Below, piece by piece: positions 3,561-38,859 of a stretch of DNA of 40,276 nucleotides (position 1 is its first letter; every line of letters begins with the position of its first letter). The notes under the pieces were generated by a model. It ran no database searches and was not told the DNA's origin. It worked only from the letters and a program-made list of their open reading frames with translations. The position numbers were made by a program, and so were the translations under genes. The stretch covers positions 10,852,865 to 10,893,140 of the forward strand of contig NC_057752.1 in assembly GCF_004010195.1 (NCBI RefSeq). The letters are read 5' to 3'. The stretch is from Chiloscyllium plagiosum. Lineage: Eukaryota.

Positions 3561-6500
3561 TGTAAAAGGAAAATACTCGAAGAGAAACTTTTTTCAAATT
3601 AAAAAATGGATCACTTAGTAAATTATACACCTGCATATCAAAGAGTTGGGTTTAGGTCATCAAGTGGCAAAACTGAAATTTACAAAGCCAAAAACAGGTC
3701 TGTAGTTTGCCAATCTTGCGTACTGTATTCATATAAAATAACAAAGACTCTGCCTAATTCTATCTGTAAGAAAGCAAGCTGTGCAGCATTAGAGGAAGTG
3801 ACTAGATTGCAGATGTGATTTTCTGACACAAAGCATGGTCGATATAACATGCCAAAAGTGGACTGTAACTGCCATCTAATACTGCAAATGCAAAGGTAAG
3901 AGAAAATAGTTTGCAATCTTACATTAAGGTTTGTAATCTATAATAACTTCCAGATCATGAAACATCATTAACAGCAGGCAATGTGGCTAAAAGAGCTTTA
4001 ATATTTACCAGGGGAGATATAATGGGGAGACATGACATTGAAGTTTAAGAGGAGCAATGATGTAACTGCACTTAAAATAGAAAAAGGGAACAAACAAACT
4101 CAAAACAGCACAAAGCCCCAATCTGGATGGACGGTGTCCAACTATTTTAGAAAAATCAAGGGAAGCAATAGCAGCATTACAGATCAGATATTCTTCATCT
4201 GAAAATCTTGGAACAACTTTTTTTTTGGGAAGGAGAACATTTTCAGTTTTTGGATGCAAGGCAGTAAATAGATTTGCACAGTTTTAATCATTAATTCTGA
4301 CTCGGCATCAGATTAAAATCAAGGTCACAGCACCTGTTTGAATTGCTGGAACCTGTCAAGTTCTGCCTTAGTTGGAAAGTTTTTGTCACCTTGTTTAATG
4401 AATCAGTTAAATAATTCAGAATGGTTATTACCTCTTGTGATGGCTGCACCCAACTATTATCGATCACATTGTGTGCGAAGTGCGAATAAATAACTATTTG
4501 CAGAGGAAAAGCATGAGGCACAAAATATCAACATTTACTGCAATACACTTAGGTCCACTGTCTGTCCGGTTGGACCCTTTGGGGGAAAAAAAACAGCTTT
4601 TCTTAATCCAAATAGATCTGAACAGACCAAAAAGTGAAGCATTTTCCAACTGGACCAAAACAGATCTGCTGCCACAATGAGTTCAAACCTTTGAGGAAAA
4701 TAACTTCACTTTTCCATCCATTTGGATCAACAATTCTTTTCCAAAGGAGGTGAACTCAGCATGTCGACAGGTCTGTTCGAGGCCATTCTCGAAAAAGATC
4801 CTCAGTTTTTAAGTCTTTTCAGTTTCCAGACGTGCAGATAAAGGATACCTGACAGGTACTTCAAGTGGCCAGGGCCTGGGAAATGAATATTCAAGGTTAC
4901 ACATGTTATCGTAAGGACAGACTGACGGACAGAGGGGGTGGGGTGGCCATGTTGGTAAGGGATGATATTCAGTCCCTTGCGCGGGTGGGACCTAGAATCA
5001 GGGGATGTAGAGTCAGTATGGATAGAGCTGAGGAATTCTAAGGGTAAAAAGACCCTCTTGGGAGTTATCTACAGGCCCCCAAACAGTAGTCTGGATGTCG
5101 GATGTAAGTTGAATCACGAGCTGAAATTGGCCTATCCCAAAGATGTTACTACAGTTGTTATGGGGGATTTCAACATGCAGGTAGACTGGGAGAATCAGGA
5201 TGGTATTGGACCTCAAAAAAGAGACTTTGTGGAGTGCCTCCGAGATGGATTCTTACAACAGCTGGTGCTGGAGACTACCAGGGAGAAGGCTATTCTGGAT
5301 CTGGTATTGTGCAACGAACCAGAATTGATCAGGGACCTCGAAGTGAAGGAGCCATTGGGAAGTAGTGACCATAATACAATAAGCTTCAATCTGCAATTTG
5401 AGGGGGAGAGGGTACAATCGGAAGTGACAATATTTCAGTTGAATAAAGGGAACTACGGAGTTATGAGAGGGGAGATGACCAAAGTTCAACGGTGCAATAC
5501 CTTAGCAGGGATGACAGTGGAGGAACAATGGCAGATATTTCTGTGTATAATGCAGAAGGTGCAGGATCAGTTCATTCCAAAAAGGAAGATCCTAGGAGGA
5601 GGCAGGGGTGATCGTGGCTGACGAGGGAAGTTAAGAAACATATAAAGTTAAGAGAGAAAAAGTATAACACAGCAAAGATAAGTGGGAAAACGGAGGACTG
5701 GGAAGCTTTTAAAGAACAGAGGATTACTAAGAAGGAAATACGCAGAGAAAAAATGAGGTATGAAGGTAAACTGGCCAAAAATATAAAGGAGGATAATAAA
5801 AGCTTTTTTTTTTAGGTGTGAAAGGCAAAAAAATGGTTAAGACTAAAATTGGGCCCTTGAAGACAGAAACAGGGGAATATATTATGGGGAACAAAGAAAT
5901 GGCAGAAAAATTAAATTGGTACTTCAGATCTGTGTTCACTGGGGAAGACACAAGCAATCGCCCTGAGGTAACAGTGGCTGAAGGACCTGAACTGAAGGGA
6001 ATTTATATTTGCCAGGAATTGGAGAGACTGTTAGGTCTGAAGGTTGATAAGTCCCCAGGGCCTGATGGTCTACATCCCAGGGTACTGAAGGAGATGGCTC
6101 GAGAAATCATGGATGCGTTGGTGATTATTTTCCAGAGTTCAATAGATTCGGGATCAGTTCCTGCGGATTGGAAGGTGGCTAATGTTGTACCACTTTTTAA
6201 GAAAGGTGGGAGAGAGAAAACAGGAAATTATAGACCAGTTAGTCTGACCTCAGTGATGGGAAAGATGCTGGAGTCTATTATAAAGGATGAAATTACGACA
6301 CATCTGGATAGTAGTAACAGGACAGGTCAGAGTCAGCATGGATTTATGAAGGGGAAATCATGCTTGACTAATCTTCTGGAATTTTTTGAGGATGTAACTC
6401 TGAAGATGGACGAGGGAGATCCAGTAGATGTAGTGTACCTGGACTTTCAGAAAGCTTTTGATAAAGTCCCACATAGGAGGTTAGTGAGCAAAATTAGGGC

Positions 6501-6850
6501 GCATGGTATTGGGGGCAAAGTACTAACTTGGATTGAAAGTTGGTTGGCTGACAGGAAACAAAGTAGTGATAAACGGCTCAATTTCGGAATGGCAGGCAGT
6601 GACCAGTGGGGTACCGCAGGAGTCAGTGCTGGGACCACAGCTTTTTACAATATATATTAATGATATTGAAGATGGTATTAGTAATAACATTAGCAAATTT
6701 GCTGATGATACTAAGCTGGGTGGCAGGGTGAAATGTGAGGAGGATGTTAGGAGATTACAGGTGACCTGGACAGGTTAGGTGAGTGGTCAGATGCATGGCA
6801 GATGCAGTTTAATGTGGATAAATGTATGGTTATCCACTTTGGTGGCAAGG

Positions 6851-7631
6851 TTTGGGAGAAGATTTGTAGCTCAGGTGCTCGTTGTTGTTGTTCTGTTTGC
6901 CGTGCTGGGAATTTGTGTTGCAGACGTTTCGTCCCCTGTCTAGGTGACATCCTCAGTGCTTGGGAGCCTCCTGTGAAGCGCTTCTGTGATGTTTCCTCCG
7001 GCATTTATAGTGATTTGTACCTGCCGCTTCCGGTTGTCAGTTCCAGCTGTCCGTTGTAGTGGTCGGTATATTGGGTCCAGGTCAATGTGCTTATTAATTG
7101 AATCTGTGGATGAGTGCCATGCCTCTAGGAATTCCCTGGCTGTTCTCGGTTTGGCTTGTCCTATAATAGTCGAACTCATGTTGCTTGTCATCTGGAGTGT
7201 GTGGCTACGAAGGATAGCTGGTCGTGTCGTTTCGTGGCTAGTTGGTGTTCATGGATGCGGATCGTTAGCTTCTTCCTGTTTGTCCTATGTAGTATTTTGT
7301 GCAGTCCTTGCATGGGGGAAAAAAATTCCCATTCAAAAACTGCACAAAACACTACATTGGACAAACAGGAAGACAACTAACGATCTGCATCCATGAACAC
7401 CAACTAGCCACGAAACGACACGACCAGCTATGCTTAGTAGCCACACACTCAGATGACAAGCAACATGAATTCGACTGGGACAACACTACTATTATAGGGC
7501 AAGCCAAACAGAGAACAGCCAGGGAATTTCTAGAGGCATGGTACTCATCCACAGATTCAATCAATAAGCACATCGACCTGGACCCAATATACCTGCCACT
7601 GCAATGGACAGCTGGAACTGACAACCGGAAG
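6851..7631. mobile_element. Penelope-like element 3' region (GIY-YIG endonuclease + pLTR) as an inverted repeat
   Basis: Right arm (7321-7631, +) encodes CTKHYIGQTGRQL.IHEH...AREFLEAW...INKHIDLDPIY; left arm (6851-7315, -) is its reverse complement plus the 3' tail; right end lost in the gap. Confidence 0.9.
6920..6959 (-). ncRNA. Minimal type I hammerhead ribozyme motif in Penelope pLTR
   Basis: Minus strand GCA-CUGAGGA-U-GUCACCU-AGAC-AGGGGAC-GAAAC-GUC-UGC: core, stem II (one mismatch), palindromic ACGU stem III, 3-bp stem I. Confidence 0.75.
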
Positions 7632-7975
7632 NNNNNNNNNNNNNNNNNNNNNNNNNNNNNNNNNNNNNNNNNNNNNNNNNNNNNNNNNNNNNNNNNNNNN
7701 NNNNNNNNNNNNNNNNNNNNNNNNNNNNNNNNNNNNNNNNNNNNNNNNNNNNNNNNNNNNNNNNNNNNNNNNNNNNNNNNNNNNNNNNNNNNNNNNNNNN
7801 NNNNNNNNNNNNNNNNNNNNNNNNNNNNNNNNNNNNNNNNNNNNNNNNNNNNNNNNNNNNNNNNNNNNNNNNNNNNNNNNNNNNNNNNNNNNNNNNNNNN
7901 NNNNNNNNNNNNNNNNNNNNNNNNNNNNNNNNNNNNNNNNNNNNNNNNNNNNNNNNNNNNNNNNNNNNNNNNNNN
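7632..7975. other. Assembly gap (344 N)
   Basis: Run of N. Confidence 1.
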
Positions 7976-8534
7976 CTACCTTACGCTGAAAGACTGGAGC
8001 AACTGGGCTTGTATACCCTTGAGTTTAGAAGACTGAGAGGGGATCTGATTGAGACATAAGATTATTAAAGGATTGGACACTCTGGAGGCAGGAAACATGT
8101 TTCCGCTGATGGGTGAGTGCCGAACCAGAGGACACAGCTTAAAAATAAGGGGTAGGCCATTTAGGACAGAGATGATGAGAAACTTCTTCACCCAGAGAGT
8201 GGTGACTGTGTGGAACGCTCTGCCCCAGGGCAGTAGAGGCCCAGTCTCTGGATTCATTTAAGAAAGAGTTGGATAGAGCTCTCAAGGATAGTGGAATCAA
8301 GGGTTATGGAGAGAAGACAGGAACAGGATACTGATTAAGGATGATCAGCCATCATCAACCTATCGAATGGTGGTGCAGGCTCGAAGGGCAGAATGGCCTA
8401 CACCTGCAACTATTGTCTATTGCACTACACCCTTTCCAGTCTGTTAGAAAACGGGTGTGGTGTCAGAAAACTGGCAGACGGCCAATGTAAGGCCCACGTT
8501 GAAGGGCAACTGAATATGCCCAGGGAATTACAGA

Positions 8535-17506: not shown

Positions 17507-17625
17507 TGATGTGGAGGTGCTGGTGTTGGACAGGGGTGGGCAAAGTTAAAAATCACATAACACCAGGTTATAATCCTGTGGGACTATAACCTGGTGATGT
17601 GATTTTTTTTTTTTTAAAAAACACC
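17507..17625. mobile_element. Penelope-derived hairpin element (same family as 37588) with the centre deleted
   Basis: AAAAATCACATAACACCAGGTTATA..TATAACCTGGTGATGTGATTTTT inverted arms; flanking TTCCAAAA(T/C)A duplication at 17497 and 17626. Confidence 0.75.
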
Positions 17626-17848: not shown

Positions 17849-18106
17849 CTATAAGAAAGAAGGATAAACCAGACATATTAGCCTCCATTGAGAGAGTTCA
17901 ATGCAGGGAATCTACATCCCAGAATACTTAAGGAAATAGCATGAGACATAATGGATGCATTGTGTTCATCTCCCAAGGTTCTATAGACTCTGGAACAGTC
18001 CCTACAGATTGGATAGCTAATGTAACCCACTATTTTAAAAAATGACTCAAAGAAAACTGGAATTAAGAGAAGTTAGCCTGATATCGGTTGTGGGTAAAAT
18101 GCTAGA

Positions 18107-18320
18107 ACTGAAAATGTGTTGCTGGAAAAGCGCAGCAGGTCAGGCAGCATCCAAGGAACAGGAGAATCGACATTTCGGGCATAAGCCCTTCTTCAGCCTG
18201 AAGGGCTTATGCCCGAAACGTCGATTCTCCTGTTTCTTGGATGCTGCCTGACCTGCTGCGCTTTTCCAGCAACACATTTTCAGCTCTGATCTCCAGCATC
18301 TGCAGTCCTCACTTTCTCCT
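18107..18320. mobile_element. Non-autonomous Penelope-type palindromic element with two opposed hammerhead motifs and a 14-bp TSD
   Basis: Arms 18108-18196 and 18198-18283 are near-perfect reverse complements; 37-nt unpaired extension; GGTAAAATGCTAGA at 18093-18106 and 18321-18334. Confidence 0.9.
18164..18196 (-). ncRNA. Minimal hammerhead ribozyme motif (probably defective)
   Basis: CUGAAGA-A-GGGC-UUAU-GCCC-GAAAU-GUC-GAUUC; 5' strand of stem I missing; the mirror copy on + (18198-18227) has a 3-nt core deletion. Confidence 0.6.
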
Positions 18321-20620
18321 GGTAAAATGCTAGAGTCCATTATAGAGAGTTAATAATGAAGCACTTTTAAAACAGTGGTAGGATCAGACAGTCAGCATGG
18401 ATTTATGAAAAGTAAACTGTACAAATCTACTGGAATTCTTCACGGATGGAATAGAGCACAGGAGTAAAGTTGATGAGGGGGAGCCAATAGATGTACTTTA
18501 TTTGGACATTCAGAAGGCTTTTGACAAAGTCCACACAAGAGATGAGCATGTAAAATTAAAGTGCTTGGCACTGGGGGTAGTGTATTGAGGCGATTAGAAA
18601 ACCACTTAGCCGACAGGAAATAGAGTATGAATAAATGGGTCTTTTTCGAAATGGGGAGTAGTGACTACCTGGGTATTATAGGGATCAGTGCTAGGACCCC
18701 AGCCATTCACAATATATGTCAATGATTTGGATGAGGGAACTAAACGTAATATCTCTAAATCAGGTGACAGAATTGGGTGGGAGGGTGAGCTGTGAGGAAG
18801 ATGTTTCGTTATGATTTGGGGAAGTTGAGTGAGTGGGCAAATGCATGGCAGATGGTGTATAATATAGGTGGAGGGGTTATCTAGTTTGGTAGCAAAAATA
18901 GGAAGGCAAATTATCTGAATGGCCATAAATTGAGGAAATTTTGGGGGGTGGGGTGCAGGGGTGTCCTCAGACTCCAGTCACATGTCAGTGCAGAAGTGAA
19001 AATGAAGGCAAATGCTATGTTGGCCTCCATCATGAAAGGATTCAAGAACAGGGGTGTCTTGCTGCAACTATACAGAGCCTTAGTGAGACTATCCCGGTAG
19101 TTTTGGTCTCTTATCTAAGGAAGGATGTTCTAGCAATATAGAGAGAGTGCAGCGATGGTTGACCAGACTGATTCCTGGGATGGCAATACTGACGTATGAG
19201 GAGAGTTATACATAATACAGAGGGTTGAATCATTTTGGACTACATTCACTGGAGTTTAGAAGAACGAGACGAGTTTTCATTGAAACATTTAAAAAATTGT
19301 AACAGGACTAGACAGGGTAATTGCAGGAAGGACGTTCCTGATGGCAAGGGGGGTGTCTAGAAAAAGGGGTCACAGTCTAAAGATACAGGGTAAACCATTT
19401 AGGACTGAGATGAGAAATTTCTTCATCCAGAGAGAGTGGGGAGTCTGTGGAATTCACTACTACAGAAAGTGATCAAACCCAAAATAGCGCATAATTCCAA
19501 GGAAAAGTTGGATATAACACTTGGGAAGAAATGGATCCTAGGATATGGGTGGTGGGTGTGTGCGTGGTGGTGGTGGTGGGCGAAGAACAGGCTGTTGTAT
19601 TGGATGATCAATAGATGGTGGAGCAGGTTCAAAAGGGCTGAATGGCATTGCCCTGCTCCTATTTTCTATGTTCCTATAACACCTATGTTTTTATTGTTTG
19701 GACATGTGTGCATGCATATAAATGGGGAGATTTATTAGTGGGTTCAAGTTTTAACTAGTGGAGTTATAGGTTGATGGTGCAATGGTTTGTCTCTAGCTAG
19801 TGTCTAATTACCTGTCATAAATTGTAATTCTGTTAAATACAGAATCCTGATCCATGCTTTCTGACAACCTTGATCCAAAAGACAGGTAAACTGGGAAATC
19901 TTTAAAATCTTTAATTTTTGTGACAACTCCAGGAATGGGGAGGCTTGATTTCCAGCACACTATCCCAGCAAGGGTAGTTAACCAACAGGAATGTAATCGA
20001 AATGAGGGGAAAATCTAAACAAGTGTTGGTAAGAGGAATTGAATCGAGTTTTGGAAGTCTGGACAAGCATTAAAAATAGACTGCAATCAATAGTAATGAC
20101 CACCTGAGATGCTTGCTGGTAATGTATTTGAACACATCTAAAGTGAATTACTCTTAGAAGCTAGGTGTTAAATATCAAATCAGTTCTGACTTGTTCAATT
20201 ATTTCCTTTTACTCTTCCCAACCCCGCTCCCAATCTTTTGAATGTACAATTTTCTGCAACCATTTTAACTTTCCTGTAATCATTTCAAATTTGTGCCCAT
20301 TTCAAATCTATAACTGTGTAAAGAAACATATTAACACCATTACGAATAACAACCATTTAAGTGAGTCAATTTGTTCTCTTGCATTTTTTGGATCAAAACA
20401 AACTGTAAATAGGGTGTTTTATAAAAGATAAAAGTCCTACAGGAGTCTGCATGTTTGTGGCCTACTTGCCTTCCTCTACCATGTTCCCAGGCCATGAGAC
20501 CTTTCTCCTTCTTTGCAGATTTGCCATGCTTCCGTCCACTTTGTTACCCTGCTTTAACTGTCTGCACAGAGTAGAATCAGTTTTTGTTTTATAAGCGTAT
20601 CCAACTACCAGCGCCATTAC

Positions 20621-33656: not shown

Positions 33657-34262
33657 CAGATGTGGTGATGCTGGTGTTGAACTGTGGTGAAGAGTCAGAA
33701 GTCACATGACACCAGATTAGAATTTTTTTAGAATCCCTCCAGTGTGGAAACAGGTCCTTCAGCCAAACAAGTCCGCACCGATCCTCCAAACAGTAACCCA
33801 CCCAGACCCATTCCCCTACCCTATATTTACCCCTGACTAATAACCTACACTCTGGGCAATTTAGCATGGCCAATTCACCTGACTTGAACATCTTTGGACT
33901 GTGGGAGGAAACCGGAGCAGCCAGAGGAAACCCACACAGACACAGGGAGAATGTGTAAACTCCACACAGACAATCGCCCGAGGCTGGAATCAAACCAGGG
34001 TTCCTGGCGCTGTGAGGCAGCTGTGCTAACCACTGAGCCACACGCCGATTTCTGTTTGGGGAACATTTTCACGACCCCATTAAAAACCCGGAACTGTGCA
34101 GGAAAGAAAACGGATGAAGAAAGAATGGGGGGTGGGGGGGGATCTCAAACCACCAACCGCTCGGTTAACAGCCAAACACACTGACCAATTGCGCCAGAGA
34201 CTTACAGTCCAACAGGTTTATTTGAAATCACAAGCTTTCAGACAGCAGCCCCTTTATCAGGC
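33657..34262 (-). mobile_element. Penelope-derived element (37588 family) split by an HE1-containing insertion
   Basis: GATGTGGTGATGCTGGTGTTGAACTG..CACCAG (33659-33716) resumes as CAGTCCAACAGGTTTATTTGAAATCACAAGCTTTCAGACAGCAGCCCCTTTATCAGG (34205-34261), a decayed minus-strand hammerhead. Confidence 0.55.
33716..34047 (-). mobile_element. HE1-type V-SINE
   Basis: Reverse complement has TGGCTCAGTGG A box, GGTTTGATTCC B box, V-domain and CR1-like 3' end. Confidence 0.9.
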
Positions 34263-37587: not shown

Positions 37588-37754
37588 GATTTGGAGATGC
37601 CGGCGTTGGACTGGGGTGCACAAAGTTAAAAATCATACAACACCAGGCTATAGTCCAACAGAACCACCTGATGACGGAGTGGCGCTCCGAAAGCTAGTGT
37701 GTTTCCAATTAAACCTATTGGACTATAACCTGGTGTTTTGTGATTTTTAAACTT
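37588..37754 (+). mobile_element. Non-autonomous Penelope-type hairpin element with an intact hammerhead core and 12-bp TSD
   Basis: Inverted arms ~37619-37661 and 37714-37758; TGTATTTC(T/C)AGT at 37576-37587 and 37755-37766. Confidence 0.85.
37665..37699 (+). ncRNA. Minimal type I hammerhead ribozyme motif
   Basis: CAC-CUGAUGA-C-GGAG-UGGCG-CUCC-GAAAG-CUA-GUG: core, stem II, palindromic AGCU stem III, 3-bp stem I. Confidence 0.75.
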
Positions 37755-38506: not shown

Positions 38507-38859
38507 AGGACAGGTACAGCATGGGGTTCGATACAAAGTAAAGCTACCTCTACTCTTTTAACCTGAATGGAAAACTGCCTTTACTCTTTTAAACCAAAAG
38601 TAAAAAGGCCCCTAAATTCTGCCCTATCAAACACTTCCAGGACAGGGACAGTATAGGCTTAGATACACAGTAAACCTCCCTCTACTCTTAAACCAGAAGT
38701 AAACCGAAAGTAAAACTCCCTTGACAGTGTCCCCATTGAACACTCCCGGGAAAGAAACAGCATGGGGTTAAAATACAGAGTAAAGCTTGCTCTACTCGTT
38801 TAAAGAAACGACACTAAAAGGATAGCTCCCTCTATACTGTCCACATCCAACACTCCCCA
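38507..38859 (+). repeat. Degenerate minisatellite, three ~110-130 bp units
   Basis: GGACAGG.ACAGCATGGGGTT.GATACA.AGTAAAGCT.CCTCTACTC...CCC.AT..AACACTCCC repeated at ~38508, ~38640, ~38749. Confidence 0.8.

What the first reader, a model, noticed from the sequence alone, without database searches (positions are those of the whole stretch)
6920..6959. Minimal hammerhead ribozyme just downstream of the Penelope GIY-YIG coding region
Seen: the minus strand reads GCA CUGAGGA U [GUCACCU-AGAC-AGGGGAC] GAAAC GUC UGC, with predicted cleavage between 6923 and 6922. Established: Penelope-like elements carry minimal type I hammerheads in their pLTRs, with a loopless palindromic stem III thought to need dimerisation. 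Inference: this copy keeps all core nucleotides and could cleave any minus-strand read-through transcript.
Basis: partly seen in the sequence, partly recalled or inferred. Interest (0 to 1): 0.7.

Follow-up and report, generated by a model that had tools for sequence, protein, structure and literature searches.

The report
Penelope retrotransposon hammerhead in shark DNA
This is a real copy of the small self-cutting RNA motif already known from Penelope-type jumping genes, left in a broken, probably inactive insertion in shark-like DNA; its one curious feature is that the jumping gene's stop and start signals both seem to lie inside the motif.

Summary
The motif is there as read: a minimal type I hammerhead at 6959-6920 (minus), all core bases present, cut site 6923/6922. 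A strict descriptor gives 2 hits in the window against 0.007 per shuffle. It sits in the 3' end of a 5'-truncated, frameshifted Penelope/Poseidon-type fragment. That fragment lies head-to-head with a second arm, inside a CR1-type LINE; the closest named proteins are from bamboo sharks. Corrections: (1) it is not downstream of the ORF. The RT-endonuclease stop (UAG 6942-6940) lies in stem II/loop II, and an AUG at 6950-6948 probably starts the next tandem ORF, as in the anole element PAc. (2) Stem II has an A-G mismatch and stem I has only 3 bp. (3) Cleavage of a read-through RNA here is unlikely: no sense partner is seen, a rival hairpin wins in folding, and published metazoan minimal hammerheads are inactive alone or need the element's protein. 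Within-family core conservation was inconclusive. Known kind since 2014, and this scan found it before in this and other genomes. Only the start-stop overlap inside the ribozyme is a modest new lead.

The parts
6920..6959 (-). Minimal type I hammerhead motif (3-bp stem I, CUGAGGA core, unpaired U between A9 and G10.1, stem II of 6 pairs with one A-G mismatch, GAAA, palindromic ACGU stem III, C17 at 6923)
   Evidence: Sequence; descriptor against shuffles. Only one of the 40 best-supported family variants lies in it: C17 to U, 13-37% of depth in four runs.
6940..6942 (-). Stop codon UAG of the RT-endonuclease ORF, formed by the last base of the stem II 5' strand and two loop II bases
   Evidence: 6943-7167(-) aligns to the last 75 residues of P0002 at 92%, ending TEDVT. 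6 of 171 proteins held end in this signature and 4 read through it.
6846..6950 (-). AUG at A9-U-G10.1 and a 35-codon open frame running to the element end: probable start of the next tandem ORF plus the Penelope 'tail'
   Evidence: Translation P0024. It aligns from residue 1 to residue 2 of the 832-aa RT relative P0027 (40% identity, pairwise E 0.002). 3 of 4 listed family polymorphisms here are silent in this frame, against 0 and 1 of 4 in the other two frames.
6846..6882 (-). Two family 3' ends about 35 nt apart (6846 and 6881/6882); this copy uses the longer end
   Evidence: Loose ends in run X21: 88 reads at 6846, 42 at 6881, 21 at 6882; 16 contigs of X18 at 6846 (only the best-supported rows are shown).
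6846..7316 (-). Left arm: 5'-truncated Penelope/Poseidon-type 3' fragment (C-terminal part of the GIY-YIG endonuclease, hammerhead, tail), frameshifted by a 14-nt deletion at 7167 and 1-nt indels near 7195 and 7270
7322..7631 (+). Right arm: second 5'-truncated fragment of the same family, head-to-head with the left arm, frame open, running into the assembly gap
   Evidence: 88% identical to P0002 residues 333-435; 269 matches and 20 substitutions against the left arm over 7027-7316.
7632..7975 (.). Assembly gap (344 N); may hide the right arm's hammerhead and about 311 nt of the interrupted LINE
4959..6849 (+). Host CR1-type LINE 5' of the insertion (AP endonuclease and RT remnants); shares 4 nt (6846-6849) with the element's 3' end
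   Evidence: Pfam Exo_endo_phos_2 E 1.8e-9 and RVT_1 E 3.7e-18; reads of uninterrupted copies leave the stretch behind 6849. The label CR1 is recalled, not from a call.
7976..8400 (+). Host LINE resumes after the gap
   Evidence: Both flanks match one uninterrupted copy at 18606-19452 in register.

Best explanation
The 40-mer is the minimal hammerhead of a high-copy Penelope/Poseidon-type retrotransposon family of a bamboo-shark-like genome, carried here as a passenger in a dead insertion. How the locus arose (inferred, by analogy with the anole element PAc): the element's RT-endonuclease cut both strands of a LINE and began reverse transcription inside its own RNA about 105 nt past the AUG, so the copy ends with hammerhead plus tail. 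Synthesis stopped after about 470 nt and was joined head-to-head to a second truncated copy, probably made from another RNA. In an active tandem element the motif would fold only as a dimer through the palindromic ACGU stem III, or with help from the element's protein, and cut 28 nt into the ORF. At this locus it most likely does nothing: the ORF is broken, no sense partner is seen, and a rival hairpin over the core (GGACG-AAA-CGUCU) is the favoured fold. Shown: sequence, family, architecture, position of the stop. Inferred: start codon, insertion mechanism, inactivity.
For: Motif beyond chance. Both arms encode the C-terminus of RT + GIY-YIG-type proteins: 88-92% identical to the Chiloscyllium protein P0002; weak GIY-YIG Pfam hits in relatives, best 22.4 bits against a cut-off of 22.6. 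High copy number: 84,626 and 26,003 contigs laid in two DNA-type runs on a stretch that also holds about 70 nt of LINE. Two family ends 35 nt apart match the 30-40 bp tail in PMC11167929 and PMC8557442. Head-to-head arms are a described arrangement. In 80 distant relatives' loci a related descriptor gives 27 hits in 24 loci: 15 sense downstream, 9 antisense upstream, 3 other, against 0.03 per control set; some loci are duplicates. 11 of 20 arm differences are at third codon positions (p 0.038), which suggests two templates. Misfolding in context. No pile-up of RNA ends in the four runs.
Against: No full-length element and no genome were available, so clade and start codon rest on predicted proteins. 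No Rfam hammerhead match. Core conservation within the family is not shown: 1 of 40 listed variants falls in the 40 nt against 3.4 expected, p 0.15, with 144 lower-ranked rows hidden. Folding programs do not model hammerhead tertiary contacts or protein help. The target here is not AT-rich and shares 4 nt with the element end, unlike the PAc in vitro pattern. The gap hides the other junction, so target duplication or deletion is unknown.
Confidence: 0.85

Rival explanations
1. The copy is an active ribozyme at this locus and cuts minus-strand read-through RNA, alone or in trans with one of the many family transcripts pairing through the ACGU palindrome.
For: Core intact, and none of the 10 listed positions where this copy differs from over 80% of the family lies in the motif. 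Family RNA is present in run X21, with depth about 200 against 30 by strand over the motif, so trans partners may exist. As an isolated 40-mer, stem I and the outer stem II form with probability 0.54-0.77.
Against: Pair probabilities of at most 0.09 in context; active dimer -12.7 against best dimer -20.9 kcal/mol; no read ends pile up at 6922/6923 (weak because of library type); only 9 of 682 X21 reads are 99% alike or more, so transcription of this locus is not shown; a monomer was inactive in PMC4209133. If the right arm extends 68-107 nt into the gap, a read-through RNA would bury the motif in a long duplex.
Confidence: 0.08
2. The motif is kept mainly by double protein coding (end of one ORF, start of the next) and by use as a protein-binding or priming signal; cleavage is vestigial in the whole family.
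For: Both frames overlap it. The one common variant, C17U, is silent in the start frame. PAc ribozyme mutants insert normally in vitro and no RNA-seq ends were seen at its cut site (PMC11167929). Naiad elements thrive without canonical hammerheads (PMC8557442).
Against: The same core is kept in distant relatives where the AUG opens no long frame (14 of 14 stop within 18 codons), with different stem sequences. PAc does cleave with protein and shows C3/G8 rescue. C17U also stays within the NUH rule (recalled).
Confidence: 0.2
3. Chance match, or an assembly artefact beside the gap.
For: No Rfam hit; an inverted repeat next to an N gap can be a mis-join; no laid piece bridges the arm junction.
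Against: 2 of 300 shuffles give any strict hit. The motif sequence is covered deeply in four runs. The arms differ by 20 substitutions and indels, so they are not a copied read. The LINE is collinear on both sides. A mis-join at the junction would not affect the motif itself.
Confidence: 0.02

Closest known systems
Minimal hammerheads (min-HHR) in pLTRs of metazoan Penelope-like elements (Cervera and De la Pena 2014, PMC4209133; parts 1-2 of 4 read)
   Same: Type I topology, long stem II, short stem I, unpaired base between 9 and 10.1, G10.1-C11.1 pair, palindromic 15.2-16.2 with no loop 3, mostly single copies in truncated elements, pairs on opposite strands within 100-700 bp.
   Different: Stem I is 3 bp (4-5 in S. 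mansoni); A-G mismatch inside stem II; sharks are not named in the text read (supplement not seen); no overlap with the ORF stop is described in the parts read.
PAc, Poseidon element of Anolis carolinensis (Frangieh et al. 2024, PMC11167929; parts 1-2 of 4 and term passages read)
   Same: ORF start at the base of stem II; cut site 26 nt (here 28) past the start; internal RT initiation leaving a tail with two ends; both strands cut and extended.
   Different: Ends here are at +70 and +105, against an AC-rich stem-loop at +111-118. Here the upstream ORF stop lies inside the ribozyme; the term 'stop codon' does not occur in that paper's main text. This copy is a broken fragment.
Inverted, head-to-head pLTR structures of EN+ Penelope elements (Arkhipova et al. 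2013, PMC3846280; Craig et al. 2021, PMC8557442; passages read)
   Same: 5'-truncated inverted copy adjacent to the 5' end, 30-40 bp optional tail, pLTR containing the first codons of the ORF, insertion into another retroelement.
   Different: Both arms here are truncated within about 6 nt of the same family position, and their differences suggest two templates rather than self-priming of one (p 0.038).
Non-LTR retrozymes (bioRxiv 10.64898/2026.07.22.740005; part 1 of 5 and term passages read)
   Same: Type I hammerhead derived from PLE pLTRs; reported in one chondrichthyan genome.
   Different: Not a tandem non-coding repeat: this copy carries endonuclease coding sequence and is single on its strand.

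Membership tests
PLE minimal hammerhead (min-HHR) | Core CUGANGA ... GAAA ... UH | tested here: met
   CUGAGGA 6956-6950, GAAA 6930-6927, UC 6924-6923
PLE minimal hammerhead (min-HHR) | Loopless, palindromic stem III (15.2-16.2) | tested here: met
   ACGU at 6927-6924
PLE minimal hammerhead (min-HHR) | Unpaired base between 9 and 10.1, and a G10.1-C11.1 pair | tested here: met
   U6949; G6948-C6931 (features)
PLE minimal hammerhead (min-HHR) | Long stem II (7-8 bp) and short stem I (4-5 bp) | tested here: inconclusive
   Stem II is 6 pairs plus one mismatch, stem I is 3 bp: slightly short of the S. mansoni figures, but D. virilis has 6 and 2 bp
PLE minimal hammerhead (min-HHR) | Located in the terminal repeat of a Penelope-like element | tested here: met
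   At the end of the RT-EN ORF, 74 nt from the family 3' end
PLE minimal hammerhead (min-HHR) | Core better conserved than flanks across copies | tested here: inconclusive
   1 of 40 listed variants in 40 nt against 3.4 expected, p 0.15; 144 rows hidden; confounded by double coding
PLE minimal hammerhead (min-HHR) | Self-cleavage as dimer or with protein | not testable with these tools
   Needs in vitro assay; folding disfavours the active form
EN+ Penelope-like element | Single ORF with RT and C-terminal GIY-YIG endonuclease | tested here: met
   Shown for the family through P0002 (RVT_1 E 3.3e-6) and relatives P0005, P0008, P0015 (GIY-YIG E 0.027-0.00016, all under the cut-off). This copy keeps only the C-terminal part, which has no Pfam hit itself
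EN+ Penelope-like element | 5' truncation, inverted adjacent copy, optional 30-40 bp tail | tested here: met
Penelope/Poseidon clade | RT phylogeny, and no extra Zn-finger linker of Neptune/Nematis | not tested
   No tree with named references was built; the label rests on likeness to the PAc layout and on the short RT-EN linker seen by eye
Rfam hammerhead families | Score at or above the gathering threshold | tested here: not met
Non-LTR retrozyme | Two or more tandem non-coding units, each with a hammerhead | tested here: not met
   Single sense copy in a coding fragment

The most novel reading that the evidence does not exclude
In this shark family the repeat unit has no untranslated region: one ORF stops in loop II of the hammerhead 8 nt after the next ORF has started at the base of stem II (+1 frame), and both priming sites (+70, +105) lie just past the cut (+28). 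The ribozyme would then be a switch. A cut linear monomer has no start codon at its 5' end and cannot template a full copy, whereas an uncut tandem or a ligated circle can be translated again and again by termination-reinitiation and copied to more than unit length. This would make the open question of what PLE hammerheads are for directly testable with one 40-nt junction. The overlap itself is likely (about 0.75); the functional coupling is speculative.
Probability: 0.15. Interest if true: 0.55.

Novelty: new member of a known kind. Interest (0 to 1): 0.14.

Why it matters
As a locus it matters little: one of very many passenger copies of a motif described in 2014, in a broken insertion. The family is of modest use. 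It repeats in a shark the layout worked out for the anole element PAc (start codon in the ribozyme, two tail ends), and adds a stop codon inside the ribozyme. The role of hammerheads in Penelope elements is still unclear (PMC8557442), so a junction where stop, start, cut site and priming sites lie within 105 nt is a compact test object.

Tried and rejected
Rfam: nothing at gathering score in the window; at E<=10 in 6500-8200, 21 matches, 20 of them (miRNA and one snoRNA model) on the inverted arms, which I reject as hairpin artefacts, and no hammerhead. No whole genome is held, so no genome-wide count or covariation across copies. Pfam finds nothing in the window's own endonuclease fragments. 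Viral contigs: 219 pattern matches, none a relative. Sequencing-run search: no RNA holder listed. Contig depth peaks over the motif, but it also peaks at 7103-7159 and 7217-7254 and dips at this copy's private changes, so I did not use it as a conservation measure. Alignment A3 of 14 motifs was not run through a pair count, because the rows were picked by a pairing descriptor and the result would be circular. A database search with the 35-residue start peptide could not be run, so its relatives were sought only among 170-190 proteins already held. AUG-in-ribozyme as a general start is rejected for the distant metagenome relatives: 14 of 15 have the AUG and all 14 stop within 18 codons. Stop-in-ribozyme is not general either: P0027 and P0176 end without the signature, and P0012/P0013 read through it. 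Earlier-findings searches by sequence, by place and for the start-stop overlap returned nothing. Lunse et al. (PMC5785218) is not held; it is cited only through the review PMC6765202 (passages). No host gene was looked for beyond the ORF list, so whether the locus is intronic is open.

Full report
1. Observation. All core positions of a type I hammerhead are present, with an unpaired U between A9 and G10.1, a G10.1-C11.1 pair and a loopless palindromic ACGU stem III. The cut would fall between 6923 and 6922. Stem II has six pairs and one A-G mismatch; stem I has three pairs. A strict minimal descriptor, written after I saw the motif, finds 2 hits in the window against a mean of 0.007 in 300 dinucleotide shuffles; a looser one finds 3 against 0.16. 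Rfam has no match at gathering score and no hammerhead at E<=10, and the 40-mer is no more stable than its shuffles (z -0.36).

2. Context. The motif lies near the end of a fragment running 7316 to 6846 on the minus strand. A second fragment of the same family runs from about 7322 to 7631 on the plus strand and disappears into a 344-N gap. The arms meet head-to-head, truncated within about 6 nt of the same family position. Translated, they match the C-terminus of P0002, an RT-bearing Chiloscyllium punctatum protein, at 92% and 88%. Relatives give weak GIY-YIG Pfam hits, all just under or below the cut-off; the window fragments give none. The pair interrupts a LINE with AP-endonuclease and RT remnants (the name CR1 is recalled). 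Reads of uninterrupted LINE copies leave the stretch behind 6849, and both flanks match one intact copy at 18606-19452. About 311 nt of LINE are unaccounted for, so the gap may or may not hold the right arm's own hammerhead, which would need 68-107 more nt.

3. Family data. I laid 4 of the 24 runs listed. The family is abundant: 84,626 and 26,003 contigs in the two DNA-type runs, on a stretch that includes about 70 nt of LINE. The left arm has a 14-nt deletion at 7167 and 1-nt indels, so its ORF is broken. Ten listed positions differ from over 80% of the family in both DNA-type runs, none of them in the motif. Of the 40 best-supported variants (144 more hidden), one lies in the motif: C17 to U, in 13-37% of depth. 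No row is listed at 6934 or 6945, so the A-G mismatch is probably the family state (inference). Family copies end at two places: 6846 (88 reads) and 6881/6882 (42 + 21 reads) in run X21, with mixed flanks. That is a 35-nt tail, in the 30-40 bp range given in PMC11167929 and PMC8557442. In X21 depth over the motif is about 200 against 30 by strand, with no pile-up of ends. Only 9 of 682 reads are 99% alike or more, and the run is not shown to be the window's species, so this says nothing certain about this locus.

4. The motif overlaps coding sequence at both ends. The RT-endonuclease frame ends TEDVT-stop, with UAG at 6942-6940, the last base of stem II and two loop bases. Of 171 proteins held, 6 end with this signature (four Chiloscyllium, one Hemiscyllium, one Stegostoma) and 4 read through it, two of them identical to each other over the motif, one named from Schistosoma. 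The AUG at 6950-6948 (A9-U-G10.1) opens 35 codons up to the element end. This peptide aligns start to start with the 832-residue RT protein P0027 (40%, pairwise E 0.002; E 0.059 among 170 proteins). A second cluster, P0176 (844 residues), begins with the same M-S-x4-T-K-x-L spacing; 5 of 190 proteins in 2 clusters do so. Three of the four listed polymorphisms in 6846-6950 are silent in this frame, against 0 and 1 in the other frames; the numbers are small. This is the layout of PAc, whose ORF begins at stem II with the cut 26 nt downstream; here it is 28. It is not universal: in distant metagenome relatives the same AUG meets a stop within 18 codons in 14 of 14 cases, and P0027 and P0176 do not end in the motif.

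5. Generality. In the best 80 of 108 metagenome loci encoding distant relatives (24-43% identity), a related descriptor gives 27 hits in 24 loci: 15 sense and downstream of the ORF match, 9 antisense and upstream, 3 elsewhere, against 0.03 per control set (several loci are duplicates). The antisense-upstream class fits the same head-to-head arrangement: 5 of 7 such loci tested show inverted arms, 88-97% alike. Inverted truncated copies are described in PMC4209133, PMC3846280 and PMC8557442.

6. How it most likely works. Inferred from PAc: the RT-endonuclease cuts both DNA strands and primes reverse transcription inside its RNA, about 105 nt past the AUG, so every copy ends in hammerhead plus tail. 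Two truncated cDNAs joined at their 5' ends give the inverted pair. The arms differ at 20 sites, 11 at third codon positions and 10 silent (p 0.038), which fits two templates better than fold-back of one; later conversion cannot be excluded. In an active tandem the ribozyme would fold as a dimer through ACGU or with protein help. At this locus cleavage is unlikely. No sense partner was found. In 121-471 nt contexts a rival hairpin over G12-C17 wins and the hammerhead pairs have probability of at most 0.09, although as a bare 40-mer stem I and the outer stem II reach 0.54-0.77. The active dimer scores -12.7 against -20.9 kcal/mol for the best dimer. A lone S. mansoni motif did not cleave and PAc needed its protein. 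These programs ignore tertiary contacts, so this is not proof.

7. Novelty. A new member of a kind described in 2014. This scan has noted it before: 5 findings hold all search words, 4 of them on other pieces of this genome (AI notes, not checked here). I did not find the stop-inside-the-ribozyme overlap in print: a five-term search gave 3 papers, 2 listed, and the passages read in PMC8557442 and PMC11167929 do not describe it. Supplements, figures and Repbase entries were not seen and may show it, and Lunse et al. could not be read. The boldest reading left open is that the ribozyme is a switch at a junction without UTR: a cut linear monomer lacks its start codon and cannot template a full copy, while uncut tandems or circles can be translated and copied. 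I give that 0.15.

8. Verdict. Observation confirmed; interpretation partly supported; interest 0.14.

Noticed in passing
window 37665-37699 (+): A second complete minimal hammerhead of another family (3-bp stem I, CUGAUGA core, palindromic AGCU stem III) inside a short repeat of about 170 nt whose other copies are at 17507-17600, where the motif is deleted, and near 33659.
   Followed up: partly
window 18104-18287: An 88-bp, 97% inverted repeat with 8 nt between arms, made of two head-to-head ends of a third hammerhead-bearing repeat; the minus arm has a CUGAAGA core at 18196, the plus arm has a damaged core. Same head-to-head layout as the main locus, also inside a LINE.
   Followed up: partly
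window 6846-6849: Four bases are shared by the element's 3' end and the LINE target, and the target is not AT-rich, unlike the in vitro preference of PAc. One locus only; may be chance.
   Followed up: no
window 7316-7322: Both arms are 5'-truncated within about 6 nt of the same family position although they seem to come from different templates; reads also show loose ends at 7315-7316, which here mark where the family sequence continues.
   Followed up: partly
proteins P0001, P0007, P0011, P0018, P0019, P0021: Predicted shark isoforms of ordinary genes (MAP3K7, NT5DC1, CUEDC2, EYA3-like, WBP2-like and one uncharacterised gene) end in this element's endonuclease C-terminus, in two cases up to the stop inside the hammerhead: exonised copies or annotation artefacts.
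   Followed up: no
proteins P0012-P0016, P0027, P0028, P0030: Among the closest non-shark relatives (42-54% identity) those with names are from parasitic flatworms (Schistosoma, Sparganum). Possible horizontal transfer between hosts and parasites; no tree was built.
   Followed up: no
L002-L077 (metagenome loci): Distant Penelope-like elements in metagenome contigs carry hammerheads with a 4-nt palindromic insertion in stem III, CAUG in 26 of 27 hits; L006 and L010 carry identical motifs on both strands.
   Followed up: partly
window 38535-38847: Five degenerate copies of a 31-nt unit (family D8).
   Followed up: no
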